Source of the DNA: Minisyncoccota bacterium
GTDB lineage: Bacteria > Patescibacteriota > Minisyncoccia > Phycocordibacterales > UBA5272
Assembly (NCBI GenBank): GCA_043781255.1
Contig: JAYWBQ010000028.1
Location: 16,702-80,701 of the forward strand
Direction: 5' to 3'
Length of the DNA: 64,000 nt
This document shows, piece after piece, positions 2,604 to 56,639 of the stretch. Numbering within the stretch: the first letter of the stretch is position 1; each line of letters starts with the position of its first letter. The position numbers were made by a program, and so were the translations under genes. Below the pieces are notes generated by a model, which saw nothing but the letters and a program-made list of their open reading frames with translations, was not told the origin of the DNA and made no database searches.

Positions 2604-3101
2604 ATGTCTACATCTATCTTAGATGAATTCTTCCTGTGTGATGTTTCTGTAGATCAAAAATCAATAAAGTATTCAATAGACAGAAATAGTACTTATCTAC
2701 TGTCTAGAGAGTTGTTCCTACACTCAAAATCACATGTTGAGTGGTTTTCCGCATTCCCTGATGTATCACTGCACGCTGATTACTCACAGAAGGTTAGAGG
2801 GTCACTTTTCACAGGTATTGTTAAAACACTTTTTCCGGAGGAAAAATTAAGTATTGTATCTGCACATTACCTTTTCCCTTGTCAAACTCTAGCGGAGGAA
2901 CGGAGTGAGTTTTACAAGTGGAAAAGTAGTGTGATAGGTGAAGACATACCAGCCCGTCCTGTTAAAGGGCGGGTATGGTTACACATAGCACGCGGGAAGT
3001 GCGTAAGCGGTACCCAACGGGTACCGAGCAACGCGTATCAACGTTCTGGGTTACTAGTAACACCCAGAGAACGTTGCATGTTGCAACAACACTCCATATG
3101 A
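2604..3101 (+). CDS. Hypothetical protein on the element. The C-terminal part overlaps the inverted-repeat block and may not be coding.
   Basis: 165-aa ORF. Its last ~50 codons run through GC-rich palindromes (2940-3095), so the true product is probably shorter, or the ORF is spurious. Confidence 0.25.
   Translation: MSTSILDEFFLCDVSVDQKSIKYSIDRNSTYLLSRELFLHSKSHVEWFSAFPDVSLHADYSQKVRGSLFTGIVKTLFPEEKLSIVSAHYLFPCQTLAEERSEFYKWKSSVIGEDIPARPVKGRVWLHIARGKCVSGTQRVPSNAYQRSGLLVTPRERCMLQQHSI
2950..3096. repeat. Cluster of inverted repeats; candidate replication origin or recombination site of the element
   Basis: Three inverted repeats: GGTACCCAACGGGTACC (3009-3025), CAACGTTCTGGGTT-ACTAGT-AACACCCAGAGAACGTTG (3039-3076) and TGTTGCAACA (~3078-3087). 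They are GC-rich in an AT-rich element and sit immediately upstream of the putative Rep start at 3098. Confidence 0.45.
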
Positions 3102-4171
3102 TAGACACAATTAAATTCTTTGTGTCTATTCCTGATGTTCAAGTTCTTAATAGAATAAAGAGCATTTCTGAACAAATAAAAAGAGAAGACCTAAAAACAG
3201 GAAAGATAAGATTTGTATTCCACACAACTGAAATAAAAGTAGGTTCTTATAATAAATCAATCAATATAAGGATAACAGACAATCTTTACAACCAAGGATT
3301 ATTCATAGAGCTCTCAATTCCAAAATATGCAAAAGGAAACAATATAGAAATGCTCCTACCCAGAGAGCTCCCACAAATAATAGAAAAATTATCCCAAGAC
3401 ATAACCACCCAACTAGATACCCCACTACCTCATTTTTCTACTTGGGAAATATTTAGATTAGACATTTGTTATAACTGGATATTTAAAACTAAACAAGAAA
3501 CAGAAACAGTAAGGGGTTTTCTTCAAAGAATAGATTATCCAAGAAAGAAGAAAATCCTGTACCCAACATCCGTCATGTTTTTAGGTACTGCTTATCTTAT
3601 TAGATTCTACTTAAAATATCCTGAGTACTTAGTTCATGACTACAAAGATTTACAAGATGAAGACAAAACAAGTGATAGAACATTTAATCTTTTATTCTTT
3701 GCAGAAAGAATTGTTAGATTTGAAGTTGAGTTTAAGAAAAAACATCTTAAAGGGGTTTTTAGATATGACAAAGTATTCATTGTACATATACAAGATGATG
3801 AAAAAATAGAGGAGGAACTCAAGCACTACCTCAATGACAAAGTATTCAAATATGTAACTCTTAAGAATACAACAGATATCAAAGTAGAAGAACTGCTTTA
3901 CAGTAACTTCACAAAAACAAAAGCTACACGTCTTTATCAATTCTACAATGATTTCTATTTAAGTAATGGAGCTATAAAAAATAGAATGCTTAGCGGTGGT
4001 TTAAACAGAAGCACTATTTGGAGGTATAAAACAGATCTTAAAAGTGTTGGTATTGGTTTTGACGTGGTAAGTACTTCTGGCGTCAGTTTACTTGAACAGT
4101 TAGTAATTCCATCTCCAAATTCAAAGTTTGATTTAATTGGTTTTCCTGAAAAAGAAAATGGACATTGTTAA
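3098..4171 (+). CDS. Possible rolling-circle replication initiator (Rep_trans-like); otherwise a hypothetical protein
   Basis: The ORF track starts it at 2975, but codons 1-41 lie in the IR block. The Met at 3098 (MIDTIKFF...) is the more plausible start. The segment KKHLKGVFRYDKVF resembles the Rep_trans R-x-Y-D-K nucleophile region. Weak, unverified. Confidence 0.35.
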   Translation: MIDTIKFFVSIPDVQVLNRIKSISEQIKREDLKTGKIRFVFHTTEIKVGSYNKSINIRITDNLYNQGLFIELSIPKYAKGNNIEMLLPRELPQIIEKLSQDITTQLDTPLPHFSTWEIFRLDICYNWIFKTKQETETVRGFLQRIDYPRKKKILYPTSVMFLGTAYLIRFYLKYPEYLVHDYKDLQDEDKTSDRTFNLLFFAERIVRFEVEFKKKHLKGVFRYDKVFIVHIQDDEKIEEELKHYLNDKVFKYVTLKNTTDIKVEELLYSNFTKTKATRLYQFYNDFYLSNGAIKNRMLSGGLNRSTIWRYKTDLKSVGIGFDVVSTSGVSLLEQLVIPSPNSKFDLIGFPEKENGHC

Positions 4172-4328
4172 AACTTCACAAGAAGAAGTTTTACCTGAAG
4201 AAACCCTACAAACGTTAGAGGCTTTAGGTGAGGTGCTGCTTAGAATTAGGAGAAGGATGTTATCTGAGGGGTTTGACGTGGTAGATGGAAAAGTTGTTAA
4301 AAAGAGTATAATAGACAAAAATGACTGA
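4137..4328 (+). CDS. Small protein translationally coupled to the recombinase; candidate recombination directionality factor or regulator
   Basis: Of the 63 codons, a start at MDIVKT (4158) is likely. Its stop TGA (4326-4328) overlaps the recombinase ATG (4321) in an ATGACTGA arrangement. Confidence 0.3.
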   Translation: MVFLKKKMDIVKTSQEEVLPEETLQTLEALGEVLLRIRRRMLSEGFDVVDGKVVKKSIIDKND

Positions 4329-5991
4329 AGAAGAACTACAAATCTGGAAGGATATTGAGAAAGGTAAGTACTGCAATTACTATTTGATTTACAATAGAAA
4401 AAGTACTGATGAACAAGATAATCAGAAAACTTCTCTTAGACATCAAAAAGAAGAAAATCTTAAATTTGCTCAAAAGAATAATTTACCTATTGCCCCCATT
4501 ACAACACCTACATTTTTTAATAATGGTGTAATATCAGAAAAACATTCTGCATATAAACAAGATGATGATATGGTTTTAAATGATGACGGAACTGTTCAAC
4601 TTAGCGTTGGAAGACCAAAGTTTTTTAAACTGTCACAGTTGTTAAATAAGAAATTATTTAAAGGTGTTATTTTCTTATGTCTTGACAGAGCTAGTAGAAA
4701 TGCGTCTGATAATTTAATCATCAAAAAACTTCAAAAGAATGGTGTAGATATACTCTTTGCTCTTGCTACTTATGATAAGACTAGTGCGGGGAAATTACAC
4801 CAAGATATTGATGGGATGTTTGCGGAACATAAATCAAGAGACACTGCTGAAAAAGTCACAAATACTGGAAAGAAGAATAGAAATGGTGGTGTCTGCACTT
4901 ATAAAGCACCTGTTGGTTATTTAAATCTAGGAACAATGGATAACAAACCATTTGACCCAGTACGTGCTCCATTTATTGTAAAATTTTTTGAACTAGCAGA
5001 TACTGGATGGTCACTTGCGGATATAGCTAGATTTTCTATTGAACAAGGTTTTACAATGCCTCCAATTCGGAAAAGAAGGAGTACTCATCAACTACTTTTA
5101 GATGAAGAAGAAGATGAAGCATCAACTCAACCCAAAGTATGCAACCTTGCTAGATATACCACTATACAAAAGATACTACGCAGTCCTTTTTATACAGGTG
5201 CTGTCCAAAACAAAGAACTTGGGTGGATACCTAGTACAAGTCATAAAGCTCTCATAACAAAAGAAATGTTTGATAGAGTACAAGAAAAACTTACTAAGAA
5301 GAACAGGAGTAAAAAGTATAATGAACCTCTTCCTAATCCATTTAGAGCACAATTCACCTGTGACGGTTGTAGACGCTCCTATACCCCATATTTTAAGAAA
5401 GGACACCTATATTTAGGGTCTAGGTGTGTAGTTGGGTGTTCTAACTCAAACAAGAACTTTAACGTTGATTTTATTACCAAGAACATAAGTAAGGTTGTCA
5501 GTAGTCTTTCTTTCTCTAAGGAGGAAATTGGAGTTATAGATAGTAGGGTTAAAAACTATTTAGAAGTCTTAGAAAAAGACCAAAATAGTAAGGATGAGGA
5601 AAATAAAAATAAGAAGAATAAACTTAGTGAAGATTTAGCATACTTAATAGCAAATAAACTCACCCTTTTAAAGAATGGTGTTTATACTCCTGAAAGTTTG
5701 GTGGTAGAAGAAAAAAAACTGGAAACAGCTATCAGTAACATTTCTAACCTTGAGCATGTTTCAGTAGAAGAAATACAAAAAACAGTACAAAATGTTTATA
5801 AACTTTCAGAACTTCTAAAAGACTTTATTCCTCAATGGGAATTTGCTAATTCTCATGAAAAACAAGATTTACTTAAAATAATGTTTTCAGAACTTTCTAT
5901 TTCTGAGAAAAACCTTAATTATAAGGTTACAAATGGACTTGTTCCCATTCAATCAAGATTTTTCTCTCTTTGTGCCCAGGAAAGGACTTGA
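4321..5991 (+). CDS. Large serine recombinase (resolvase domain, recombinase domain, zinc ribbon, coiled coil)
   Basis: N-terminal YLIYNRKSTDEQ (the Y-x-R-x-S-T-x-x-Q catalytic serine motif). The central region has the large-serine-recombinase layout. Cys cluster CDGCRRS...GSRCVVGC. C-terminal coiled-coil-like segment. The last 19 nt overlap tRNA-Leu. Confidence 0.9.
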   Translation: MTEEELQIWKDIEKGKYCNYYLIYNRKSTDEQDNQKTSLRHQKEENLKFAQKNNLPIAPITTPTFFNNGVISEKHSAYKQDDDMVLNDDGTVQLSVGRPKFFKLSQLLNKKLFKGVIFLCLDRASRNASDNLIIKKLQKNGVDILFALATYDKTSAGKLHQDIDGMFAEHKSRDTAEKVTNTGKKNRNGGVCTYKAPVGYLNLGTMDNKPFDPVRAPFIVKFFELADTGWSLADIARFSIEQGFTMPPIRKRRSTHQLLLDEEEDEASTQPKVCNLARYTTIQKILRSPFYTGAVQNKELGWIPSTSHKALITKEMFDRVQEKLTKKNRSKKYNEPLPNPFRAQFTCDGCRRSYTPYFKKGHLYLGSRCVVGCSNSNKNFNVDFITKNISKVVSSLSFSKEEIGVIDSRVKNYLEVLEKDQNSKDEENKNKKNKLSEDLAYLIANKLTLLKNGVYTPESLVVEEKKLETAISNISNLEHVSVEEIQKTVQNVYKLSELLKDFIPQWEFANSHEKQDLLKIMFSELSISEKNLNYKVTNGLVPIQSRFFSLCAQERT

Positions 5992-6054
5992 ACCTTCACG
6001 CCTTGCGGCATCAGTTCCTAAGACTGATGTGTCTACCAATTTCACCACCTGGGC
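5973..6054 (-). tRNA. tRNA-Leu (anticodon TAG)
   Basis: Hand-folded. Acceptor stem GCCCAGG/CCTGGGC. D-arm GTGAAATTGGTAGACAC. Anticodon loop CTTAGGA. Long variable arm TGCCGCAAGGCGTG. T-arm AAGGTTCAAGTCCTT. Confidence 0.85.
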
Positions 6055-6885: not shown

Positions 6886-7728
6886 TTAGGCTGATGCCAT
6901 CTCGCGTTGCTCGAAGTCAACTTGGTCAACTTGGAACATCGACGAAACGTCGATACCACTCACGGGGACCTTTACGTCATCGTCATCACCAAATTCTGCC
7001 TTATGCTCTTCGTCGACCATTTTCATGGTGATGACGGCATCCATGGGCTGATCAAATGAATCTCGTGTCATTTTCATGAAGTTTTTCTGTACGTTTCGTG
7101 CTTTTGCTTTGGTAATCAACTCTTTCAAGTTGTGCTGCAAAAATGCAAGCATGCCATCCTGAACTTCCCCGATTTTCCCTCGCGTGAAGTTTGCCTTCAC
7201 GTGTTTCTGCAGAAGCCAGGTATGAGGGATGAAAATTCGCTCATGTGCGCCATCCCGGAGGAATGGTTCTTGAATAACCAAGATGTCTTGTGCAGGCTTG
7301 TCCCCATTTTTAGGGAACCAGCGAAGTGTGACAATAAAGTCGTTGGTGACGAACTGGTCATCAGAGTTTCGGCCGAAGACATGGTAGCTACCATGGGTGC
7401 CAATAACCATCTCTTTAAGACGATTTTGCTCCTGTTCAGCAAGAATTTTCTTTGTCTCGGCTTTTGCCTTTGCGGCTAGTGCCTGCTTTTGCTCTTGGTG
7501 AGCTTCTGCACGGTCTTGGTTTCGGTCAAAGTTCGGGATCATACCTTTCACTTCCTTTACCGGCTTGGCCGCTTGTACAGCCGCCTCTTTGGCAGCTTTT
7601 TTGTCAGCGAGAGTCGTTTTCTTTATCTGCTTAGTCATCGAGTACTCCAGTTGATGCCTGTTAGGGCTATAACAATTTAAAAGGACATGACCATGTAAAA
7701 GTACAGGGTCAAGATATATTATACACAA
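6886..7728 (-). CDS. Hypothetical protein with a Lys/Ala-rich N-terminal tail (possible nucleic-acid binding)
   Basis: Likely true start at 7638 (MTKQIKK...), which has a GGAG 8 nt upstream. The tail ADKKAAKEAAVQAAKPVKEVKG is histone-H1-like low complexity. The globular part matches no family I recognise. GC is higher than in neighbouring genes. Confidence 0.5.
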   Translation of the reverse strand: MCIIYLDPVLLHGHVLLNCYSPNRHQLEYSMTKQIKKTTLADKKAAKEAAVQAAKPVKEVKGMIPNFDRNQDRAEAHQEQKQALAAKAKAETKKILAEQEQNRLKEMVIGTHGSYHVFGRNSDDQFVTNDFIVTLRWFPKNGDKPAQDILVIQEPFLRDGAHERIFIPHTWLLQKHVKANFTRGKIGEVQDGMLAFLQHNLKELITKAKARNVQKNFMKMTRDSFDQPMDAVITMKMVDEEHKAEFGDDDDVKVPVSGIDVSSMFQVDQVDFEQREMASA

Positions 7729-7739
7729 AATATAGATTT

Positions 7740-7812
7740 TGTCAATAAATATATTGACATTTAATATAAAATATTATATATTATAAAAATCTGGTGTCAT
7801 TAAAAATACCAG
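7740..7812. promoter_or_regulatory. Divergent promoter region with a palindromic operator-like site and a second hairpin
   Basis: TGTCAATA-aata-TATTGACA is a perfect 8-bp inverted repeat (7740-7759) that overlaps a TTGACA -35-like hexamer and is followed by A/T-rich -10 candidates. A second inverted repeat CTGGT-n12-ACCAG lies at 7790-7812. AGGAG at 7858-7862 precedes the ATG at 7871. Confidence 0.35.
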
Positions 7813-7870
7813 ACGAAAGTTTCTCTTTAGTTCACTGTCCTTTTACATTTTATTTTTAGGAGTTATTCAA

Positions 7871-8770
7871 ATGACAAAAAGTGTCCCTCACACTCTGGAA
7901 GACCAAATCGGGGTAGCGAACCTTCTTTCGCTGGCTACTAAGGTGGCCCTTCAACTGAAGCCAGAGACTAAGTTCTCAGCCTTCGCAGCTGAAGGACATG
8001 GTGCATGCCTGCTTCTTGACGGCACTATCTTCGGGTATATCGCACACGCAAATGGCGACAAGGCAATGGTGCTTAAAACTGGACACCAAGACCTTGAGGT
8101 GAACGATTTTGTTCATCTTCAGGAAGTTGGCTATTATGCATTCTCTGGTGAGGGGTACTATCCCTCTAGCGTTCGTGATCCAAGGATTGAGAATAAACGC
8201 GTAGCGATGTTTGATATCTTGCTTTCTGTAATCGCTGCTGAAGGCGGCCATGAGGCTGTGCTTCAAGCAATTAAAATGCGAAATGGCAAAAAAGATGAGG
8301 TGAGGCGTATTGTGAAAGATATGAAAAGTGGGGTGCTTCCGAGTAACCTGCTTGACATGTTTAGTGATATGAAGAAAGCGAAAGCTCTTGGAATCATTGT
8401 TAACAATTCGCCTCTGGTTTTTTATCGAGCATATCAAAGGATGCAGGTAAAAGATGTGTGGAAGCATGTACTTGTTATTCGCTTGGGGCTCGCGCCACAC
8501 GGTGTTGAGGGGTTTGATATTGGGACATTTGTCCCTTTGGCCAATCTCTTCATCGAGCACAGTAACAAACATGTTGCTCAAATGGTGAAAGTTCTGGTGG
8601 AGAGTATCTCGCCAAAAGATCTGGATGAGGTTAAACGCCTTACTCATGATCTTGCGGTTACGGAAGGCCGTATTCTGGAAGCAGAAGCAGAAGACTCGGC
8701 ACCTTTACTACCTGAAATTATTTTTAAGGAAGTGGGTGCTGGAGAGTCTGACAGTCAGATTCTTCATTGA
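7871..8770 (+). CDS. Hypothetical protein
   Basis: 299-aa ORF with a canonical SD (AGGAG, 8-nt spacing) and a downstream hairpin terminator (8786-8815). No recognisable motif. GC is higher than in neighbours. Confidence 0.6.
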   Translation: MTKSVPHTLEDQIGVANLLSLATKVALQLKPETKFSAFAAEGHGACLLLDGTIFGYIAHANGDKAMVLKTGHQDLEVNDFVHLQEVGYYAFSGEGYYPSSVRDPRIENKRVAMFDILLSVIAAEGGHEAVLQAIKMRNGKKDEVRRIVKDMKSGVLPSNLLDMFSDMKKAKALGIIVNNSPLVFYRAYQRMQVKDVWKHVLVIRLGLAPHGVEGFDIGTFVPLANLFIEHSNKHVAQMVKVLVESISPKDLDEVKRLTHDLAVTEGRILEAEAEDSAPLLPEIIFKEVGAGESDSQILH

Positions 8771-16883: not shown

Positions 16884-16966
16884 GCGTCGGTGGTGGAGTG
16901 GTCAATCACAACAGACTGTAAATCTGTCGCCTCCGGGCTTCGCTGGTTCAAATCCAGCCCGACGCA
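16884..16966 (+). tRNA. tRNA-Tyr (anticodon GTA)
   Basis: Hand-folded. Acceptor stem GCGTCGG/CCGACGC. Anticodon stem-loop ACAGA-CTGTAAA-TCTGT. Long variable arm. T-arm GCTGG-TTCAAAT-CCAGC. A TAGAAT -10-like element lies ~85 nt upstream. Confidence 0.85.
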
Positions 16967-16972
16967 CTGAAT

Positions 16973-17000
16973 TCAAAAAGCACCTTCAGGTGCTTTTTGT
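16973..17000 (+). terminator. Hairpin terminator after tRNA-Tyr
   Basis: AAAAAGCACC-ttca-GGTGCTTTTT perfect stem with a T-run. Confidence 0.55.
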
Positions 17001-17326
17001 GCGCAGGGCAGGATTTGAACTGCTGATTAGTAAATCACACGGGGGGGGTGATAGTCGCAACCTGCATACTCCAGGAGTTATTCTGCTGAATGACGAGCAG
17101 GTGTAGGTCTCGAGTATAGTAATGTGATACCATCCCTAACAAACCATTCAACATATTTGCCTTAATTTACCTCATAAAAAATAGTGTTTTTGTGCAGACA
17201 GTGTGTAAAGGTTAATTAGAAATGGTATGAGAGGCGAGTTTAGTCCGACACATAAAATTAAAAACACCTACTTGAAAGTATTTTTAATTAAAATTATTTT
17301 TTGGAGATAGATGATACGATGGAGTT

Positions 17327-28758: not shown

Positions 28759-29106
28759 AATGTCTCCTTTTGTGAGAATGAGATTAATGAAAAAGAACGT
28801 TTATGTTATCCTAGTATATTAATGTTTAAAATACAAGTGTTTGGAGATGCCTGCGGGAATGTCTTCGGCAAGTAAATTTTTGTCGTCACAAAAATTTCTC
28901 GCTTTGGCCTCCCGGCATCATTTACTAATCGTCTAACGCAAGTCAAGCAGTTGGGATCGCCCCTCCCTGCTTGCTTGAGTACAAGTATCGTTTATCGTTG
29001 GTCGGAACGCACTATTTTTATATTCACTTTGTTCATTAAAAATAGGTGCCTACGGTCCCTGAATGTAAGTCAAACAGTAGGGAAGAAAACTTTTTGAAAC
29101 ATAGCT

Positions 29107-29179
29107 GTGTCCCCAGTAGGGATCGAACCTACGACCTGCGGATTAAGAGTCCGATGCTCTACCAGCTGAGCTATAGGGA
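29107..29179 (-). tRNA. tRNA-Lys (anticodon CTT)
   Basis: Hand-folded. Acceptor stem GTCCCTA/TGGGGAC. D-arm GCTCAGCTGGTAGAGC. Anticodon loop CTCTTAA. T-arm GTAGG-TTCGATC-CCTAC. Confidence 0.85.
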
Positions 29180-29250
29180 CATTGACACACAAAACATATT
29201 ATACCACAATATAAAGAATAATTCTAGCTCAAATATGCTACAATTTATGT

Positions 29251-50894: not shown

Positions 50895-51560
50895 ATGACA
50901 AAGCACCATTTTTCAATCAAAGAAGTTTTTACGTTTGGATACAATAAATTAGTGCAGCATGCATGGTTCGTGTTCCTTACTGGTATTATTAGTAGTATCA
51001 TTGTTTCCGCTACTATTCCTAACCCACTCCTAGTATTTATAGTAGGCACTATGGTTGGACTATCACTTGTTTCAATATCACTTATGATTGTTAGAAATCA
51101 TAGCTTTTCTTTTTCAGATTTAACTACCCCACTTCTGTCATATAAGCGAGTGTTAAAGTTTTTTGCCCTTACATCATTCTATATGCTTCCTGTGTTATTT
51201 CTTTCATTAACTGGTGCAATTATAGTTTTCGGTGCTGCAAATGGTAGTACGTCGGTAACTATTTTTGGCTTAATTCTTACCATGATTTTCTTTGTCATTA
51301 GTGTTTTTATTACTGTGCGTCTTAAATTTTTTCCATATATTGTTATAGAACATGAATATTCTTCTGTGAAAGATTTAATTCTCATGAGTTACAAGCTAAC
51401 TCAAAATAATTTCTGGAAACTTCTTTTATTCATTCTTGCTGCAGCTGTGCTTAATACTCTGGGAGCCTTGTTCTTTTTAGTTGGACTTGTTGTCACAGTT
51501 CCAATTACTGCATTTGCTTCTGCGCATCTTTATGATAAATTTAAAAGTCATTCTGCGTAG
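50895..51560 (+). CDS. Hypothetical polytopic membrane protein
   Basis: 221 aa with 5-6 hydrophobic helices. Confidence 0.5.
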   Translation: MTKHHFSIKEVFTFGYNKLVQHAWFVFLTGIISSIIVSATIPNPLLVFIVGTMVGLSLVSISLMIVRNHSFSFSDLTTPLLSYKRVLKFFALTSFYMLPVLFLSLTGAIIVFGAANGSTSVTIFGLILTMIFFVISVFITVRLKFFPYIVIEHEYSSVKDLILMSYKLTQNNFWKLLLFILAAAVLNTLGALFFLVGLVVTVPITAFASAHLYDKFKSHSA

Positions 51561-51810
51561 TTATTAAATTATGTATTCAAAGTAATATCAAAAAGATTGC
51601 TTATAAAGCATTTTTTATCATGTCAAAAAGTGTAGCAGATTTATGACTTTTGGAACTAAAAAAGCTATTTGGTATAGAGATTTCCCCAATTAATTTCAAG
51701 AGTAATATACACTACTTCAGTAAGATTTCTAAAGATTCAACGTCATAAATAGTGTAATCAGAGTTAGATACATAGCACTGATACAAAATTACCAATAATC
51801 ACATATTTCT

Positions 51811-52059
51811 ATGGGAATAATTTTATGGATCGTATTTGGAGCATTAGTAGGTTGGATTGCATCAATGATTATGAATACCAATGGCCAGCAAGGGGTAATT
51901 CTTAATATCATTGTTGGTATTGTTGGTGCAGTGATTGGGGGTTGGATTATGAGTTATTTTGGTAAGGCTGATGTTAATGGATTCAATCTCTACAGCTTTG
52001 TCGTAGCCTTAATTGGGGCGTGCGTGTTGATTGCTCTAGTTAAAATGGTAAGGAATTAA
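51811..52059 (+). CDS. GlsB/YeaQ/YmgE-family small membrane protein
   Basis: 82 aa. Gly-zipper TM helices (GALVGWIASMIM...GAVIGGWIMSYFG). Confidence 0.7.
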   Translation: MGIILWIVFGALVGWIASMIMNTNGQQGVILNIIVGIVGAVIGGWIMSYFGKADVNGFNLYSFVVALIGACVLIALVKMVRN

Positions 52060-52142
52060 GCTGTTACGTTCTAAAATATATTATAAAGATATTATGAAGA
52101 TACACGGTTTCGCGAGGCGTTACATATAAAAAATAAAAAAAA

Positions 52143-52589
52143 ATGGCTGACCCAATTAAAATCATAAAGAGTGATCACAGAATGGTTGAGAAACTATTTA
52201 AGGGATACGAACAACTAAGTGGTGGTGCGCTCAGGGCCAAACAAAAAATTGCAGAGGATATTTGTGTTGCTTTAACATTGCACGCAGAAATGGAAGAGAC
52301 CATAATGTATCCAAAGCAAGAGGAAAAGTTTAATAATGAGGGAGATAAAATGGTAGAAGAGGCGTACGCAGAACATGAAGTAATAAAAGGGCTCATAGCC
52401 GCATTAGAAGAGATGGACCCTGATGATCCTCAATTTGATGCGAAACTAAAAGTTCTTCAAGAGGTCGTTTCTCATCACGTTAAAGAAGAGGAACAGGAAC
52501 TACTTCCAAAAACTGAAAAGGAATTTTCGGAAGAGGAACTCTCTGAAATGGGAAATGAGATGGGAGCATTCAAGGCAGAAAATAACTAA
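52143..52589 (+). CDS. Hemerythrin-like (HHE cation-binding) domain protein
   Basis: Repeated H-x3-E / H-x2-EE-x3-P motifs (SDHRMVEKLF; LHAEMEETIMYP; HHVKEEEQELLP). Confidence 0.6.
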   Translation: MADPIKIIKSDHRMVEKLFKGYEQLSGGALRAKQKIAEDICVALTLHAEMEETIMYPKQEEKFNNEGDKMVEEAYAEHEVIKGLIAALEEMDPDDPQFDAKLKVLQEVVSHHVKEEEQELLPKTEKEFSEEELSEMGNEMGAFKAENN

Positions 52590-52840
52590 TTTGAATGAAG
52601 AAAATACCTCAATATAAAAAGAAAGCTACCGAAATCGGGTAGTTTTCGACGCCCGTATAATTAAAACGGGATTTTTGACAACCACTACTGTGGTCGTCAA
52701 CCAAAAATCCATTTGCTCCAAGCTTTGAGAAAACCTTCAGTGGTAATGAACAGACCTATCAAAACCTTCTTTGTCTACGACATAAAACGTACCCACCATT
52801 TCCCAAATGAAAATCCCCTTTTAAGGGATGTTTTCATTTA

Positions 52841-52858
52841 GCTCCGTGGGTAGGGATC
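52841..52858. repeat. Copy 1 of the tRNA-Asn 3'-end sequence (GCTCCGTGGGTAGGGATC)
   Basis: 18/18 identity to the tRNA-Asn 3' end at 53906-53923. Confidence 0.6.
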
Positions 52859-53140
52859 TTTCCCGAGAGTATTCGGGACTGTGGATTCCTGCAGATTGAG
52901 TACAATCTAAGAAATCTCGTAGCCTTCGGTTCGATCTCGGTACAAACGGCTGTTAAAAGTAAAAATCCCACACAAAGTGGAACTTTTACTTTTAATGCTC
53001 GCTTGGCAATCTGACTTCTGAACTTTTAATTGGTCCAAAGCTGTCGGTGATCCAGAGATAACAGCCAGAGAAGTTAACTACTTGTTATCACTTTGTTTAA
53101 TTAGTTTTAGAAAATAATCGTTAGTATCGTAAGTAGTATA

Positions 53141-53180
53141 AAAATGAAAACCACCGAAGCGCACGGTGGCTTTCGGTGGG
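53141..53180 (-). terminator. Rho-independent terminator of the GC-rich orphan gene
   Basis: Minus-strand RNA CCACCG-UGCGCUU-CGGUGG followed by UUUUCAUUUUU, immediately 3' of the stop at 53198. Confidence 0.6.
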
Positions 53181-53197
53181 GCTGTGAAGTGGTTCGT

Positions 53198-53581
53198 CTA
53201 CGCGTCAGCATAGCGCTTGAAGAACTCTGCACGTGTCGTGACAGGCTTCACGACTTCAGCAGATTCCAGACTGAACAGGAAAAGAGCAAAGTCATGATTC
53301 GGGAAGCCGAGCTCGTTCCAGTAGGTGGCGGCTTCCGGTGACTTTTCACGAAGTGCTTCGATCGCCATGGTCTGAAGCACGATGTAGCCGGGATAGTCCG
53401 GAACGTCGAACCCAGAAATGACATCACGCATCCCATCACCTTTTTGAGGAGTGCCGTCGTGCGAAAAGAGACAAGGAACTTCGACCTCAATCCACTGCTC
53501 ACGGATTGAGAGTGGTGCACCACCCTTTGGAACAGCGGTGAAGCGAATGACACCGAGATCTTCCAGTTTAATCTGTAACAT
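53198..53581 (-). CDS. Hypothetical protein; high-GC orphan gene inside the tRNA-Asn repeat region
   Basis: 127-aa ORF, noticeably more GC-rich than the rest of the window. It has its own terminator and lies between repeat copies 1 and 2. No motif recognised. Confidence 0.5.
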   Translation of the reverse strand: MLQIKLEDLGVIRFTAVPKGGAPLSIREQWIEVEVPCLFSHDGTPQKGDGMRDVISGFDVPDYPGYIVLQTMAIEALREKSPEAATYWNELGFPNHDFALFLFSLESAEVVKPVTTRAEFFKRYADA

Positions 53582-53708
53582 GAGAACTCCTTGGTTTGGT
53601 TATAGAAACACCTAAATACTACACTTTTGAAAATCATAAAGCAAGAACTAGTTCTGAACCCTAACTAGGTAAATGAAAAATACCTTATCTAAAAGGTATT
53701 TTTTAAAG

Positions 53709-53725
53709 GCTCCGTGGGTAGGGAT
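53709..53725. repeat. Copy 2 of the tRNA-Asn 3'-end sequence
   Basis: GCTCCGTGGGTAGGGAT, 17/17 identity to the tRNA 3' end. Confidence 0.6.
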
Positions 53726-53906
53726 ATCTCCCACAAGTAAACTTTTGCCGTCACAAAAGTTTCTCGCGGGCCACTCCTCGTCGTTTCGCTTGCTAGCGAA
53801 ACATACTCCGGACTTTCGACCCCTAACAAAAGCCAAGCAGTTGGCTTTTTCCCGCGGAGCACTAAAATCAAAGGCCGCCATTTCTGGCGACCTAAGATTT
53901 TATGGG

Positions 53907-53978
53907 CTCCGTGGGTAGGGATCGAACCTACGACCAATTCGTTAACAGCGAACTGCTCTACCGCTGAGCTACCACGGA
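53907..53978 (-). tRNA. tRNA-Asn (anticodon GTT)
   Basis: Hand-folded. Acceptor stem TCCGTGG/CCACGGA. Anticodon stem-loop GTTCG-CTGTTAA-CGAAT. T-arm GTAGG-TTCGATC-CCTAC. Confidence 0.85.
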
Positions 53979-54173
53979 ATATAAGTAGAACTGAAACTTT
54001 ATTATTTAAGAATTACTTCTTGAACATAGATACAATCATACAAGAAAAACAGGCTTTCTGCAAGATGAAATTTTGTGAATAATGAGTATAGATAATAATA
54101 TTTATTACAATAGATTCTTGATTCTAGGAAGTATCTTTTAGATGCCTCTATTAGAAAATAGTGACTCTTTGTA

Positions 54174-56639
54174 TTATTTTTCTGAAAGCAACTTTTTAAG
54201 TGGAGTTTTTGTAAGAGAATATGCAATGTAATATGAGAAGGTAGATGTCACCACTAAAATACCGATGGTAATATACAGTGGAGTAATTGCAAAAGTGAAA
54301 AGCTTAAAAGAAAAAAGATAGGTATTAAGAATGAAAGCAACGCCATGCGCCACAAGATACGAGATAAACGTTGCAATAAGAATAAGAACTGCTGTCTCAG
54401 CAACAAAAAGGAATGTAATAGTCATTCTCGTTAGGCCGTAGACTCGAAGCACAAGTACATCCCCTTTTCTTTCGTAGAGTGATTGACCCGTCATAACAAG
54501 GACCAGCATAAGACCAAGGAGGATACTCGGTATACCAATTATTTTTACAACTAGAATAATTGAAGTTAGTAATGTATTTATGGTTTCTAAGATTGTGCTT
54601 GTACCAAGTGGAATTATATTTGGATATAGGTTACCTATCTTTGTTTCAATTTCTTCCACAGTTTCTTTATTTACATCTACTGTTCCAAAATAGGATGCTG
54701 GGAATGTAGCTAAAACATCTGGTGAGAATACCATATAAAAATAAGGAGTACCTCTAGCCTTGTCTGCTTCATGAATGCTCGTGACTTTTGCTGTAATAAT
54801 AATACCTTGAACAAAGACGGACACCATATCTCCGACTTCAACACCCCCTGCTTCCTTAGCAAATGACTTTTCAAAAGAAACTGACTGCTTGCTACTATCT
54901 GCCCCATGCCACACACCCGAAGAAACTATTTCACCATCAATAAGAGTGTCTCGGTATGTCATATTTAATTCTCTGGTCACTTCTCTGTCTTTTGACATTG
55001 TAATATCTCTATCGTTAATAGTTAACAATCTTCCACGGATAATTGGATACTCCTTAAACGTTGATCCAGCTATCTCTTTTACTTTTGGTAATTGCGAAGT
55101 AGTGATGTCAACAAGATATAGAGCTGGGGTAGATTTTGAAATAGTCCCGTGCAAGTTGTACATAATATTCTGTTCAACAGCAGAAACAATAAATACTCCA
55201 GCAAGTGCTGTCATAATAGACGCAGAAGTTATCATGGTTTCAATTCCTCGCCATTTTAAAAATGAAATAATACTTGAAAACATAAATGAAAAGTATCTTC
55301 GATTATTATAGAGATATGTCACGACACCGTACGAGATAAGCATAAAAAAAGAAAATAGCAGGATAAGACCAAGTACACCATAGAGAGTAAGTTGTATATC
55401 TTTGGATATACCGTAAAGCAATATTCCTAAAAAAAGTGGTATAGGGCTATAGGTAAGTATATTTGTAATTATTTTTTTATTTGTGGTGGTGGATATATTA
55501 GAAAGTAATTGTTTTGGGTTAATATATTTAAGTGAATTAAAAAATGGAATAGAAGAAATTATAATTAGTATGAAGCCACTACAACCACCAAGAATAACAA
55601 TAGGAATAATTGCAGTACTTGGAATAATTCCTTCAATGTAAAGAGAAAGAGTGGGTAAAAACATCGTAGTACCAAATGCTCCTAAAAAAGTACCGAGTGC
55701 TCCCGCAGTGATCCCTAGTGTGCCTAGAATAATCGAATATATACATTGTATTTGTAGTGTGGTAGCCCCAAATGTCTTTAGAAGGGCTATAGTTTTTTTG
55801 AAGCGAGCAAGGATATATGTTAAGTTGGCTCCAATATTTACTGCGACTAAGAATAATGCAATAGCGAGGATAATCCCTGCAAAATCTTGAACTGAAGAAA
55901 GGCCTTCTACTAAGTTGTTCGGACCATCTCTCGCATCATCAAATCGTAGTTTATTATCTTTTGCAAATGTTTTGATGCTATCGATAGTTTCTTTCGTTAA
56001 AGGTAGTATTTCATTTTCTTTAATGGAAATTTTATATGAGACTCTACTTTGACTGAGATTAATTCCTGATGTTAGGATATCATCTTGTGACATTATTACG
56101 GTTGGGCTAAACGAAACCCCAAGAGATACCTTATCCGGCTCTTTAAGAAGTACACCTGCTACTTTATAAGAACTCGTACCAATAAAAACGTTATCACCCA
56201 GAGAAATACCTAGTTTTTTTAGGAACGGTCTTTCTGCGTAGATTATATTATGACCAACAAGAAAAGGAACATTATCTTCTACGGAGATTTTTCCATACAA
56301 CGGAAAGTCTTTTCCTACAAAACGGATATTCGTAGATATGGTAGAAGACCCAGTAGTATTTCGAAAAACTGCTTGCACATCATACTCAGCAGTGAGAATA
56401 TAATCTTTTTTTATAAGACCAGCAAATAGCTCGTTAGCAGTGTCTATTTTGTTGGAACTTTTAAGTACAATATCACCACCTAGTAAGGTTTTACCTTGTG
56501 TAGTAAAAAAGGATGACAAACTTTTCGATAATGATAGAATTGCTCCAAAAAGGAAAGCCCCCACAAGAAGGCTAAAAAACGTTAAAAGAAGGTACTTATA
56601 TGAGCGAATAAAAATAATCTTAACAAAATAATATATCAT
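54174..56639 (-). CDS. ABC transporter permease, FtsX/MacB-like with two permease modules
   Basis: 821 aa with two FtsX-like 4-TM modules separated by large extracytoplasmic domains. Overlaps the ATPase gene upstream. Confidence 0.8.
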   Translation of the reverse strand: MIYYFVKIIFIRSYKYLLLTFFSLLVGAFLFGAILSLSKSLSSFFTTQGKTLLGGDIVLKSSNKIDTANELFAGLIKKDYILTAEYDVQAVFRNTTGSSTISTNIRFVGKDFPLYGKISVEDNVPFLVGHNIIYAERPFLKKLGISLGDNVFIGTSSYKVAGVLLKEPDKVSLGVSFSPTVIMSQDDILTSGINLSQSRVSYKISIKENEILPLTKETIDSIKTFAKDNKLRFDDARDGPNNLVEGLSSVQDFAGIILAIALFLVAVNIGANLTYILARFKKTIALLKTFGATTLQIQCIYSIILGTLGITAGALGTFLGAFGTTMFLPTLSLYIEGIIPSTAIIPIVILGGCSGFILIIISSIPFFNSLKYINPKQLLSNISTTTNKKIITNILTYSPIPLFLGILLYGISKDIQLTLYGVLGLILLFSFFMLISYGVVTYLYNNRRYFSFMFSSIISFLKWRGIETMITSASIMTALAGVFIVSAVEQNIMYNLHGTISKSTPALYLVDITTSQLPKVKEIAGSTFKEYPIIRGRLLTINDRDITMSKDREVTRELNMTYRDTLIDGEIVSSGVWHGADSSKQSVSFEKSFAKEAGGVEVGDMVSVFVQGIIITAKVTSIHEADKARGTPYFYMVFSPDVLATFPASYFGTVDVNKETVEEIETKIGNLYPNIIPLGTSTILETINTLLTSIILVVKIIGIPSILLGLMLVLVMTGQSLYERKGDVLVLRVYGLTRMTITFLFVAETAVLILIATFISYLVAHGVAFILNTYLFSFKLFTFAITPLYITIGILVVTSTFSYYIAYSLTKTPLKKLLSEK

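What the first reader, a model, noticed from the sequence alone, without database searches (positions are those of the whole stretch)
52841..53978. tRNA-Asn integration hotspot with a triplicated tRNA 3' end flanking a high-GC orphan gene
The 17-18-nt 3' end of tRNA-Asn (GCTCCGTGGGTAGGGAT[C]) occurs three times in direct orientation, at 52841, 53709 and in the tRNA itself at 53906. This is the classic footprint of serial site-specific integration at a tRNA.

- **Segment 1 (52859-53708, ~0.85 kb).** It carries a single 127-aa gene (53198..53581, minus strand). The gene is markedly more GC-rich than anything else in the window and has its own textbook terminator.
- **Segment 2 (53726-53905, ~0.2 kb).** It is non-coding and hairpin-rich.
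- **No integrase nearby.** These look like decayed or satellite-type islets that depend on a recombinase encoded elsewhere. The serine recombinase at 4321 is one possibility, and an unseen recombinase is another.

The orphan gene is a candidate horizontally acquired cargo of unknown function.
Basis: partly seen in the sequence, partly recalled or inferred. Interest (0 to 1): 0.65.

Follow-up and report, generated by a model that had tools for sequence, protein, structure and literature searches.

The report
Stacked small modules behind tRNA-Asn
Behind a tRNA-Asn gene of a small-genome (Patescibacteria-type) bacterium sit three short DNA modules, each ending in a copy of the tRNA's last 17-18 bases plus a terminator; one is a foreign-looking single-gene cassette found at many unrelated sites in related bacteria, and another belongs to a conserved hairpin-rich element that follows many different tRNA genes and matches no Rfam 15 family.

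Summary
GCTCCGTGGGTAGGGAT occurs exactly three times, with 0 expected by chance. The 127-aa gene is a compositional outlier (GC3 z=+4.2, codon usage z=-4.3).

- **Gene cassette.** The gene with its promoter and terminator recurs at at least 8 unrelated chromosomal sites in Patescibacteria. It is usually bracketed by direct repeats of a "tRNA-3'-end-like stretch plus hairpin". That fits a mobile cassette added at tRNA-Asn by site-specific recombination in the T-loop.
- **Recombinase.** None is encoded nearby, in the window or next to any related copy.
- **No empty site.** None was found among 14 same-species contigs.

Two corrections are needed.
- **Four boundaries, not three.** There are therefore three modules.
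- **Segment 2 is not a decayed scar.** It belongs to a conserved structured family:
  - It has three hairpins, and all 32 base pairs show compensatory changes across 10 members.
  - It has no Rfam match.
  - It lies directly behind tRNA-Asn, Lys, Tyr, Gly, Phe and Arg genes.
  - Its 5' part is the reverse complement of the neighbouring tRNA's 3' end, split by a conserved hairpin. Its 3' end is a direct copy of that tRNA end.

How these modules move and what the element does remain inferred. The protein's function is unknown.

The parts
53903..53979 (-). tRNA-Asn (GTT), intact. Its last 17-18 nt (53906-53922 on the + strand) are repeat copy 3.
   Evidence: ARAGORN; Rfam tRNA 69.7 bits; pattern match.
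53872..53893 (-). Terminator hairpin of tRNA-Asn. It is the centre of a roughly 30-nt-arm imperfect palindrome that runs from the tRNA 3' end to the inverted copy.
   Evidence: Terminator scan; full-length fold; sequence.
53709..53862 (-). Module A, the tRNA-trailing structured element (segment 2). In order it contains:
- the inverted acceptor piece, 53851-53860;
- hairpin 1, 53828-53849 (loop CUGC);
- the inverted T piece, 53815-53827;
- hairpin 2, 53783-53802 (loop AGCA);
- hairpin 3, 53734-53767 (loop GACG);
- a T-arm-like GUGGG-AGAUAUC-CCUAC and repeat copy 2, 53709-53725.
   Evidence: Fold z=-9.1; homologues; RNAalifold and covariation; covariance model 154 bits; inverted pieces.
53676..53703 (-). 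A+T-rich hairpin with a U-tract directly after copy 2. The same position in the cassette is occupied by a hairpin in other loci.
   Evidence: Inverted repeat I13; upstream alignment.
53582..53675 (-). Cassette leader: a T-loop-like box GUUAGGGUUCAGAAC (53651-53665), then a putative promoter (TTGCTT-17-TAGTAT) and ribosome-binding site.
   Evidence: Alignment with 17 other loci, where a GTTCGAAC-type box sits 5-6 nt before a TTGACT -35. The promoter is read by eye and was not called by the scan.
53198..53581 (-). 127-aa protein gene: the GC-rich cargo of module B. Function unknown.
   Evidence: ORF; 54 close homologues; 1385 representative clusters; composition; AlphaFold pLDDT 89.7.
53146..53174 (-). 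Intrinsic terminator of the 127-aa gene.
   Evidence: Terminator scan: 11 pairs plus a T-tract.
52953..53023 (-). Fourth, degenerate boundary and distal end of the cassette: GUUCAGAAGUCAGAUUGCCAAGCGAGCA (52996-53023) followed by a 19-bp-arm hairpin (52953-52995).
   Evidence: Aligns with the cassette-distal motif ...GTTCGAAACGCGTCCCGCCAAGCGAG plus hairpin of L018 and L021; inverted repeat I2 and direct repeat D7.
52859..52952 (-). Module C: a short hairpin-rich non-coding stretch (GUUUGUACCGAGAUCGAAC box, two hairpins) that ends in copy 1.
   Evidence: Fold; sequence. It was not detected by covariance model R1, so calling it a reduced relative of module A rests on layout only.
52841..52858 (-). 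Repeat copy 1: 18 nt identical to the tRNA 3' end.
52805..52838 (-). Bidirectional terminator hairpin after copy 1. On the integration model it is the original tRNA-Asn terminator. It also ends the convergent hemerythrin gene.
   Evidence: Terminator scan on both strands; repeat D2.
28835..28971 (-). Second member of the module-A family in the window, downstream of tRNA-Lys (29107..29180, minus strand).
   Evidence: blastn 83% over 47 nt; sequence; covariance model 103 bits.
16975..17021 (+). Terminator hairpin, then an imperfect inverted copy of the tRNA-Tyr 3' end (17000-17021), behind tRNA-Tyr (16884..16967). It is a distant relative of the same layout.
   Evidence: Not detected by model R1.

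Best explanation
The 1.1 kb between tRNA-Asn and the hemerythrin gene is a stack of three small modules that cannot move on their own. They were added one after another at the 3' end of tRNA-Asn by site-specific recombination within the T-loop.

Each incoming module supplies a fresh copy of the tRNA's last 17-18 nt plus a terminator. The tRNA therefore stays functional, and the displaced older copy is pushed outward together with its own terminator.

- **Module A (53709-53902).** A hairpin-rich element of a conserved family that sits directly behind many tRNA genes in Patescibacteria.
- **Module B (about 52953-53708).** A promoter-gene-terminator cassette for a 127-aa protein of foreign composition, which circulates among these bacteria.
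- **Module C (52841-52952).** A short remnant.

The recombinase is not encoded in the modules and must act in trans.

**Shown:** the repeats, the four boundaries, the foreign composition, the recurrence of the cassette with the same boundary motifs at unrelated sites, and the conserved folding of module A.

**Inferred:** that recombination rather than RNA function created the repeats, the order of events, the crossover point in the T-loop, and the identity of the enzyme.
For: 1. **Repeats.** Three exact copies, 0 expected. The identity starts inside the T-loop and stops at C74, which is the usual extent of integrase core sites at tRNA genes (established knowledge). The tycheposon preprint 10.1101/2020.12.28.424599 describes adjacent elements separated only by a partial tRNA copy, and older partial tRNAs, as traces of successive integrations.
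2. **Terminators.** Each copy is followed by its own terminator-like hairpin. That is expected if every element carries 'tRNA 3' end plus terminator'.
3. **Composition.** Gene GC3 z=+4.2 and codon usage z=-4.3. The gene is also more GC-rich than its flanks in 9 of the 11 other loci measured.
4. **Cassette recurrence.** Nucleotide homology of 73-84% runs from about -140 to +450/+610 across different contexts.
5. **Flanking direct repeats** bracket the gene in:
   - L018 (about 120 nt, spacing 704);
   - L015 (23 nt, spacing 620);
   - L019/L028;
   - L031 (about 30 nt of tRNA-Asn-like sequence plus terminators on both sides);
   - the window.
6. **Strain variants.** L006 and L007 diverge exactly after a terminator U-tract.
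7. **Parallel layout.** L067 shows tRNA-Gly, element, direct copy, NUDIX gene, partial copy.
Against: - No tyrosine or other recombinase lies next to any copy (gene tables).
- No empty site or alternative junction was found among 14 same-species contigs.
- In the related species L008 the gene sits in an operon without cassette flanks, yet still downstream of tRNA-Asn plus element. This could mean old, vertically inherited linkage.
- The cassette with its tRNA-like boundaries also occurs where no tRNA gene exists.
- Module A is under selection for its hairpins, which a passive att scar would not be.
- Modules of 95-200 bp are far smaller than any known integrative element.
- The inverted copies of the tRNA end are not explained by ordinary integrase recombination.
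Confidence: 0.5

Rival explanations
1. RNA-level function. Module A, and perhaps module C, is a functional non-coding RNA made from the tRNA's 3' trailer. Its 5' strand pairs either with the tRNA's own 3' half or with the element's own 3' copy, forming a tRNA-like acceptor/T minihelix with extra arms. The repeated tRNA 3' ends are kept by selection as helix strands and as processing or termination signals, not as recombination scars.
For: - Fold z=-9.1.
- Three hairpins with conserved loops (CUGC, AGCA, GACG) and compensatory changes. With 4 sequences, 17 of 32 pairs covary; with 10 sequences, all 32 do. No shuffle out of 500 reached the observed values, and slid controls were much lower.
- A G-U pair at the base of hairpin 3 is invariant in the four founding members, which points to folding of the tRNA-sense strand.
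- The element is always co-oriented with the tRNA and directly behind it. In L093 no terminator separates tRNA-Phe from the element.
- The L031 element has its own perfect 11-bp closing helix, different from the neighbouring tRNA-like repeats.
- A T-arm-like GUGGG-AGAUAUC-CCUAC precedes copy 2.
Against: - In the window, L008 and L009 a good intrinsic terminator separates the tRNA from the element, and no promoter is evident.
- L008 lacks the 3' acceptor copy, so a closed tRNA-like fold is not conserved.
- The window's closing helix has a C-A mismatch on the tRNA strand.
- It does not explain the mobility and foreign composition of the gene cassette, or the direct repeats around it.
- No Rfam family matches, including tRNA-like, tmRNA, RNase P and T-box. 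ARAGORN finds no tmRNA.
Confidence: 0.25
2. Folded-hairpin recombination sites, as in integron attC sites or the CTX-phage attP. Each boundary (direct tRNA-3'-like piece, hairpin, inverted piece; 70-110 nt) folds in single-stranded DNA into a mimic of the double-stranded tRNA gene end. A host tyrosine recombinase (Xer- or IntI-like) recombines it, so single-gene cassettes and non-coding modules are captured in arrays at tRNA genes and at secondary sites.
For: - Boundaries are imperfect palindromes centred on a hairpin. L008 has perfect 29-nt arms plus 12 nt after hairpin 1. The window has about 83% identity over 30-nt arms that include the trailer, not only the tRNA part.
- After each hairpin comes a GTTAGGG/GTTAGAC-type box that resembles the integron R' core GTTRRRY (the resemblance is from memory).
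- The units are single-ORF, 620-870 bp, lack a local recombinase and occur at several contexts, like attC clusters without an integrase.
- Hairpin covariation with conserved G-T/G-U pairs fits strand-specific folding.
- A single-stranded-DNA phage replication gene is present in the same window (circumstantial).
Against: - No integron integrase or any recombinase was found.
- The cassettes carry their own promoter and terminator, unlike typical integron cassettes.
- Canonical attC features (R''/L''/L'/R' with extrahelical bases) were not demonstrated. Hairpin 1 inserted between the two inverted pieces has no attC counterpart.
- No viral contig carries the protein or the hairpin-3 motif.
- A literature search gave no report of such sites.
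Confidence: 0.15
3. Local, non-mobile origin. The repeats arose by tandem duplication and by palindrome extension (template switching at the terminator hairpin) around tRNA-Asn, and the gene was acquired separately.
For: - The inverted repeat includes the tRNA trailer as well as the tRNA end, as expected from fold-back copying.
- Copies 1 and 2 share similarity on both flanks (D1 84% over 31 nt, D2 74% over 19 nt).
Against: - Hairpin 1 is homologous (GCCAACUGCUUGGC) in elements sitting at different tRNAs in different genomes, whereas the flanking inverted pieces differ. These are therefore related elements, not independent local accidents.
- The cassette and its boundaries recur at unrelated sites.
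Confidence: 0.07

Closest known systems
Successive integration (accretion) of integrative elements at a tRNA gene, with partial tRNA copies between and behind them. Examples: Prochlorococcus tycheposons and their degenerate remnants; cis-mobilizable elements that keep att sites but no integrase.
   Same: - Direct repeats of the tRNA 3' end starting in the T-loop.
- Several copies in a row.
- Cargo of foreign composition.
- An intact tRNA.
- Older copies pushed outward (for the tycheposon description; the cis-mobilizable elements are cited from memory).
   Different: - The modules are only 95-870 bp, and none of the related loci has an integrase beside them.
- Each boundary has its own terminator and an inverted copy of the tRNA end.
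- The same boundaries flank the cassette at sites without a tRNA gene.
Integron gene cassettes with attC sites, and attC clusters that lack an integrase (CALINs).
   Same: - Single-ORF units of similar size.
- Boundaries that are 70-110-nt imperfect palindromes.
- A GTTAGGG-type box.
- No recombinase in cis.
- The same cassette in several genomic contexts.
   Different: - The cassettes have their own promoter, 5' leader hairpin and terminator.
- The boundary sequence mimics a tRNA 3' end.
- No IntI was found, and attC signature features were not demonstrated.
tRNA-like RNAs (the tmRNA tRNA-like domain, bacterial Y-RNA-like YrlA, viral 3' tRNA-like structures) and functional tRNA 3' trailers (3' external transcribed spacers).
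   Same: - Module A can close into an acceptor-like helix next to a T-arm-like hairpin with a 7-nt loop.
- It lies in the tRNA's 3' trailer on the same strand.
   Different: - No match to any Rfam model.
- No G3-U70 pair and no tag reading frame.
- The closing helix is not conserved in L008.
- The D and anticodon arms are replaced by one hairpin, and the T-loop by two arms.
Target recognition by base-pairing in mobile elements: IS200/IS605 guide sequences, IS110 bridge RNA, group II intron EBS/IBS pairing.
   Same: Two segments flanking a hairpin are complementary to the sequence next to which the element sits. They differ from tRNA to tRNA, while the hairpin between them is conserved.
   Different: - No transposase, recombinase or reverse transcriptase is associated.
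- Both segments pair with the same strand, over about 22 nt.
- This is an analogy only, and nothing was tested.

Membership tests
tRNA-targeting integrative element / genomic islet (tyrosine-integrase type) | Direct repeats identical to the 3' part of the tRNA gene bracket the inserted DNA. | tested here: met
   Three exact 17-nt copies, 18 nt pairwise.
tRNA-targeting integrative element / genomic islet (tyrosine-integrase type) | An integrase gene inside the element, usually next to the tRNA. | tested here: not met
   - The only ORF between the repeats is the 127-aa gene, which has no Pfam, PHROG, NCBIfam or PADLOC hit.
- Among the neighbours scanned, every Pfam hit was a non-recombinase family; some neighbours had no hit.
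- No integrase lies beside related copies, apart from one Xer-type gene 1.4 kb away in L015.
- The window was not scanned exhaustively.
tRNA-targeting integrative element / genomic islet (tyrosine-integrase type) | Composition differs from the host's. | tested here: met
   GC3 z=+4.2, codon log-odds z=-4.3 against 57 ORFs.
tRNA-targeting integrative element / genomic islet (tyrosine-integrase type) | Presence/absence polymorphism: empty sites or excised circles. | tested here: inconclusive
   - All 14 same-species contigs carry the same arrangement.
- The related species L008 has a different content behind tRNA-Asn.
- Strains L006 and L007 diverge at a terminator.
- Circles cannot be tested with these tools.
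Integron cassette / attC | An integron integrase (IntI) in the genome or next to the array. | not tested
   Only parts of one 64-kb window and the loci flanks were scanned, and none was seen.
Integron cassette / attC | An attC site: an imperfect palindrome of 57-141 nt with R'' RYYYAAC, R' GTTRRRY and extrahelical bases. | tested here: inconclusive
   - Boundaries are 70-110-nt imperfect palindromes with GTTAGGG/GTTAGAC after the hairpin and CCCTAC before it.
- No attC model was available.
- Hairpin 1 has no attC counterpart.
Integron cassette / attC | Cassettes are mostly promoterless. | tested here: not met
   A conserved TTGACT -35, a 5' leader hairpin and a dedicated terminator are present in most copies.
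Known RNA families (tRNA, tmRNA, RNase P, SRP, 6S, T-box, Y-RNA-like and others in Rfam 15) | A match to the family covariance model. | tested here: not met
   - E-value scans of window 51500-55000, L008 2700-3200 and L009 4300-5010 gave only the tRNAs above the gathering score.
- The remaining hits are far below threshold and lie on the terminator palindrome.
- ARAGORN finds no tmRNA.
tRNA-trailing structured element (family defined here, model R1) | Hairpins 1-3 with covariation. | tested here: met
   - Window copy scores 154 bits.
- With 4 sequences, 86.6% of cells are paired against 72.3% in shuffles, and 17 pairs covary.
- With 10 sequences, 89% against 62%, and 32 of 32 pairs covary. That alignment is fitted to the model, so it leans in its favour.
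tRNA-trailing structured element (family defined here, model R1) | Located directly 3' of a tRNA gene on the same strand. | tested here: met
   - Seven tRNA-linked cases were seen: Asn twice, Lys, Tyr, Gly, Phe and Arg.
- Six of these are model members at E below 0.01. The L093 Arg-linked hit is weak (12.9 bits, E 0.21), so its membership rests on sequence inspection.
tRNA-trailing structured element (family defined here, model R1) | The 5' part is complementary to the 3' end of that tRNA, and the 3' end is a direct copy of it. | tested here: met
   Cognate specificity was seen in 4-5 of the 8 tRNA/downstream pairs compared.

The most novel reading that the evidence does not exclude
Patescibacteria carry a cassette-capture system that has not been described. 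Its recombination sites are strand-specifically folded hairpins that mimic, or base-pair like a guide with, the 3' end of a tRNA gene.

The conserved 'tRNA-trailing element' would be the docking module, customised to each tRNA by its two complementary segments around hairpin 1. Small promoter-bearing gene cassettes such as the 127-aa gene would be stacked behind it by a recombinase encoded elsewhere.
Probability: 0.15. Interest if true: 0.85.

Novelty: new variant of a known kind. Interest (0 to 1): 0.6.

Why it matters
Patescibacteria (CPR bacteria) have tiny genomes, and few of the mobile elements that are easy to recognise have been seen in them. How they exchange genes is therefore poorly understood.

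This locus, with its relatives, shows two things.
- **Small self-contained gene cassettes move between lineages.** They carry their own promoter, gene and terminator. They keep a GC content well above their hosts and land at tRNA genes and other sites without bringing a recombinase.
- **A conserved hairpin-rich element sits behind many tRNA genes and is tailored to each one.**

If the element is the docking site for cassette capture, it would define a new route of gene flow in a large part of bacterial diversity. If it is an RNA, it is a new tRNA-linked non-coding RNA class.

Either way, model R1 gives a concrete handle for genome-wide surveys.

Tried and rejected
**Identities considered for segment 2 and rejected.**
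- **tmRNA, including two-piece forms.** There is an acceptor-like closing helix and a GGGGUCGAA motif. However, ARAGORN and Rfam are negative, there is no G3-U70 and no plausible tag frame.
- **RNase P RNA.** GAAAGUCCGG resembles conserved region I. However, the element is only about 150 nt, has no P4 3' strand and no Rfam hit.
- **Retron msr/msd, T-box, Y-RNA-like, bridge RNA.** No model hit, and no reverse transcriptase, Ro or IS110 gene nearby.

**Identities considered for the 127-aa protein.**
- **IS200-type Y1 transposase or another small recombinase.** No Pfam, PHROG, NCBIfam or PADLOC hit. No conserved HUH or Tyr pattern appears in the alignment.

**Searches that found nothing.**
- **Phage or plasmid carriage.** No relative of the protein and no hairpin-3 motif in IMG/VR.
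- **Empty site.** An exact look-up of the neighbouring hemerythrin found only occupied sites.
- **Systematic tRNA linkage of the protein family.** Not supported. Four loci with close homologues lie near tRNAs (window, L008, L009, L021). Almost none of the distant soil homologues do.
- **Covariance model on module C and on the tRNA-Tyr-linked stretch.** Neither was detected, so their relationship to module A rests on layout only.
- **Literature.** Searches on integrons or attC in Patescibacteria and on folded attP at tRNA genes gave nothing relevant.
Full report
**1. Observation**

The 17-mer GCTCCGTGGGTAGGGAT occurs at 52841, 53709 and 53906 on the + strand and nowhere else. None of 100 shuffles gave a match.

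tRNA-Asn(GTT) lies on the minus strand at 53903..53979 (Rfam 69.7 bits). On the tRNA strand the repeat is AUCCCUACCCACGGAGC. That is the second half of the T-loop, the 3' T-stem strand, the 3' acceptor strand, the discriminator and C74. Pairwise identity with the tRNA reaches 18 nt for each distal copy.

The gene is the compositional extreme of the window:
- GC is 0.521, against a maximum of 0.46 among 57 ORFs.
- GC3 z=+4.2.
- Synonymous-codon log-odds z=-4.3.

**2. Anatomy on the tRNA strand**

Reading from the tRNA outward, there are four boundaries of the same type. Each is a stretch like the tRNA's 3' end, followed by a hairpin with a U-tract.

| Boundary | tRNA-3'-like stretch | Hairpin |
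|---|---|---|
| i | the tRNA end itself | terminator 53872-53893 |
| ii | copy 2, 53709-53725 | A+T-rich hairpin 53676-53703 |
| iii | degenerate GUUCAGAAGUCAGAUUGCCAAGCGAGCA, 52996-53023 | 19-bp-arm hairpin 52953-52995 |
| iv | copy 1, 52841-52858 | bidirectional terminator 52805-52838 |

After each hairpin comes a box related to the complement of the T-arm:
- GCUCCGCGGG, hairpin 1, then GUUAGGGGUCGAA;
- GUUAGGGUUCAGAAC;
- GUUUGUACCGAGAUCGAAC;
- GUGGGUA.

Each boundary is therefore an imperfect palindrome centred on a hairpin. This gives three modules:
- **B** = the gene cassette.
- **C** = a 95-nt hairpin-rich stretch.

**3. Module A is a conserved structured element**

Its tRNA-sense strand folds at -96.8 kcal/mol, z=-9.1.

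*Homologues found by sequence similarity:*
- behind tRNA-Asn in a related species (L008, also L006 and L007);
- behind tRNA-Tyr in L009;
- a second copy in this window, behind tRNA-Lys (28835-28971, minus).

*Structure and covariation:*
- RNAalifold on four members gives three hairpins with conserved loops (CUGC, AGCA, GACG). Seventeen of the 32 pairs show compensatory double changes.
- With the structure fixed, 86.6% of cells pair, against 72.3% in shuffles (0 of 500 reach the observed value). Slid controls give 2-6 covarying pairs.
- A G-U pair at the base of hairpin 3 is invariant in these four. It is the tRNA-sense strand, as RNA or as single-stranded DNA, that folds.

*Further members found with the covariance model* (R1; hits):
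- directly behind tRNA-Phe in L093;
- directly behind tRNA-Gly in L067;
- in L031, L032 and L036, plus a second L067 site;
- a weaker hit (12.9 bits, E 0.21) directly behind tRNA-Arg in L093, supported by sequence inspection.

With ten members all 32 pairs covary, and 89% of cells pair against 62% in shuffles. That alignment is fitted to the model, which favours the structure. No Rfam 15 family matches any copy.

**4. The element is tailored to its tRNA**

In L008 the 5' part reads GGGGCUCCGCGA, hairpin 1, then GUAGGGAUCGAA. This is the exact complement of the last 24 nt of the adjacent tRNA-Asn and its trailer.

The same layout, with mismatches, holds for:
- the window's tRNA-Asn;
- L067 tRNA-Gly;
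- L093 tRNA-Arg and tRNA-Phe;
- L009 tRNA-Tyr;
- the window's tRNA-Tyr, where the inverted copy is continuous, without hairpin 1.

The 3' end of the element is a direct, often partial, copy of the same tRNA end:
- window copy 2: 17-18 nt;
- L067: CGAUUCUUCCUCUCACCC;
- L093 Arg: AAUUUCCUACCGAGGGC.

In a cross-comparison, the cognate tRNA gives the best or near-best inverted match in 5 of the 8 tRNA/downstream pairs considered, and the best direct match in 4 of 8.

Hairpin 1 itself is homologous between elements at different tRNAs: GCCAACUGCUUGGC at window Asn, L009 Tyr and L093 Phe. These are related elements whose flanking segments differ. They are not independent local accidents.

**5. Module B is a mobile cassette**

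*The protein:*
- It has 54 close homologues (60-100% identity) in metagenomes and in genome bins labelled Moranbacteria, Kaiserbacteria and Paceibacteria.
- It belongs to a superfamily of about 1,385 representative clusters.
- It has no Pfam, PHROG, NCBIfam or PADLOC annotation.

*Contexts differ from locus to locus*:
- tRNA-Asn / hemerythrin (this window);
- between tRNA-Tyr and tRNA-Thr (L009);
- between rpsO/NYN and pnp (L015);
- beside a ParE toxin-antitoxin pair (L010);
- after a glycosidase gene (L012).

*Homology beyond the gene.* Nucleotide homology nevertheless runs from about -140 to +450/+610 at 73-84% identity.

*Upstream alignment of 18 loci*. It shows a fixed order:
1. a tRNA-3'-end-like stretch, ending ...GCGGAGC(C) in the window, L021, L027, L031 and L032, or ...CCTCCAG..GCGCAC in L015, L019 and L030;
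2. a hairpin;
3. a GTTCGAAC-type box;
4. a TTGACT -35;
5. in most loci, a conserved leader hairpin.

*Downstream.* After the gene's terminator the same kind of boundary recurs. This gives direct repeats around the gene in:
- L018 (about 120 nt, spacing 704);
- L015 (spacing 620);
- L019/L028;
- L031;
- the window (spacing 636 for repeat D7, 868 for copies 1 and 2).

The gene is richer in GC than its flanks in 9 of the 11 other loci measured.

**6. What argues against simple serial integration**

- No recombinase lies in or beside any module. The serine recombinase at 4321..5991 sits next to an inovirus-type replication gene and overlaps the 3' end of tRNA-Leu. It probably belongs to a prophage there.
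- All 14 same-species contigs show the same arrangement.
- In L008 the gene lies in an operon without cassette flanks, yet still downstream of tRNA-Asn plus the element, near the same fmt-PPIase-HPF block. The linkage may therefore be old.
- The cassette also sits at places without any tRNA gene.
- Ordinary integrase recombination does not explain the inverted tRNA-end copies.

**7. Interpretation**

The best-supported account (confidence about 0.5) is accretion of small non-autonomous modules at the tRNA-Asn T-loop by a recombinase acting in trans. This matches the pattern described for tycheposons, where adjacent elements separated only by a partial tRNA copy, and scattered older partial tRNAs, mark successive integrations.

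The rivals are:
- an RNA-level role for the tRNA-trailing element (0.25);
- folded-hairpin, attC/CTX-like recombination sites (0.15);
- purely local duplication with palindrome extension (0.07).

These are not mutually exclusive. The hairpin covariation shows that module A is functional, whatever created the repeats.

**8. Novelty**

The headline claim, a tRNA integration hotspot with repeated att copies, is a known kind. These features are not described in the sources I could search (Rfam 15):
- the very small size of the modules;
- the boundary design (tRNA-end mimic, terminator, inverted copy);
- the cassette's occurrence away from tRNA genes;
- the tRNA-tailored structured element.

I rate the finding a new variant of a known kind, with interest 0.6.

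Noticed in passing
window 2975..5991 and tRNA-Leu 5972..6054(-): An inovirus-type replication initiator (Phage_CRI, E 1.3e-10) is followed by a large serine recombinase whose 3' end overlaps the 3' end of tRNA-Leu. This is probably a filamentous-phage-like prophage integrated at tRNA-Leu. No second copy of the tRNA-Leu end lies within the window.
   Followed up: partly
window 28835..28971(-), behind tRNA-Lys 29107..29180(-): A second full member of the tRNA-trailing structured element (103 bits). A 9-nt partial copy of the tRNA-Lys T-stem (UCCCUACUG) lies 24 nt after the tRNA.
   Followed up: yes
window 16968..17160(+), behind tRNA-Tyr: A terminator hairpin is followed by an imperfect inverted copy of the tRNA-Tyr 3' end (GTGCGCAGGGCAGGATTTGAAC). 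Its complement differs from the tRNA at 3 positions, as if it came from another tRNA-Tyr allele. Further on are motifs shared with the Lys-linked element (GAUUAGUAAAU; UGUGA..AUCCCUAAC).
   Followed up: partly
window 6886..8770: Two ORFs (280 and 299 aa, no Pfam hit) just upstream of tRNA-Leu have the next most atypical codon usage and GC3 in the window.
   Followed up: no
loci L009, L010, L012, L015, L018-L022, L027-L032, about 25-60 nt upstream of the gene's start codon: A strongly conserved leader motif, ATCTTGCCTnnGTyGGCATGTGTTC (hairpin UGCC/GGCA), sits between the promoter and the ribosome-binding site of the 123-128-aa gene. It is absent from the window and from L008. It may be a regulatory hairpin or an operator.
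   Followed up: no
L006/L007 2350..2360; window 53140..53150; L008 4425..4440: Strain variants L006 and L007 diverge exactly after a terminator U-tract. The words TTTTTATACTACTKAC follow the terminators of different genes in different genomes, which suggests a shared cassette-end motif.
   Followed up: partly
L008 2826..2925: The tRNA-Asn 3' end, the terminator and the inverted copy form a perfect palindrome with 29-nt arms, plus 12 nt after hairpin 1. Contigs L006 and L007 start inside it.
   Followed up: partly
L067 4460..5390(-): The same layout occurs at tRNA-Gly: terminator, inverted tRNA end split by a hairpin, arms, direct copy of the tRNA end, a NUDIX gene, a terminator, then an 11-nt copy of the T-loop region.
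   Followed up: partly
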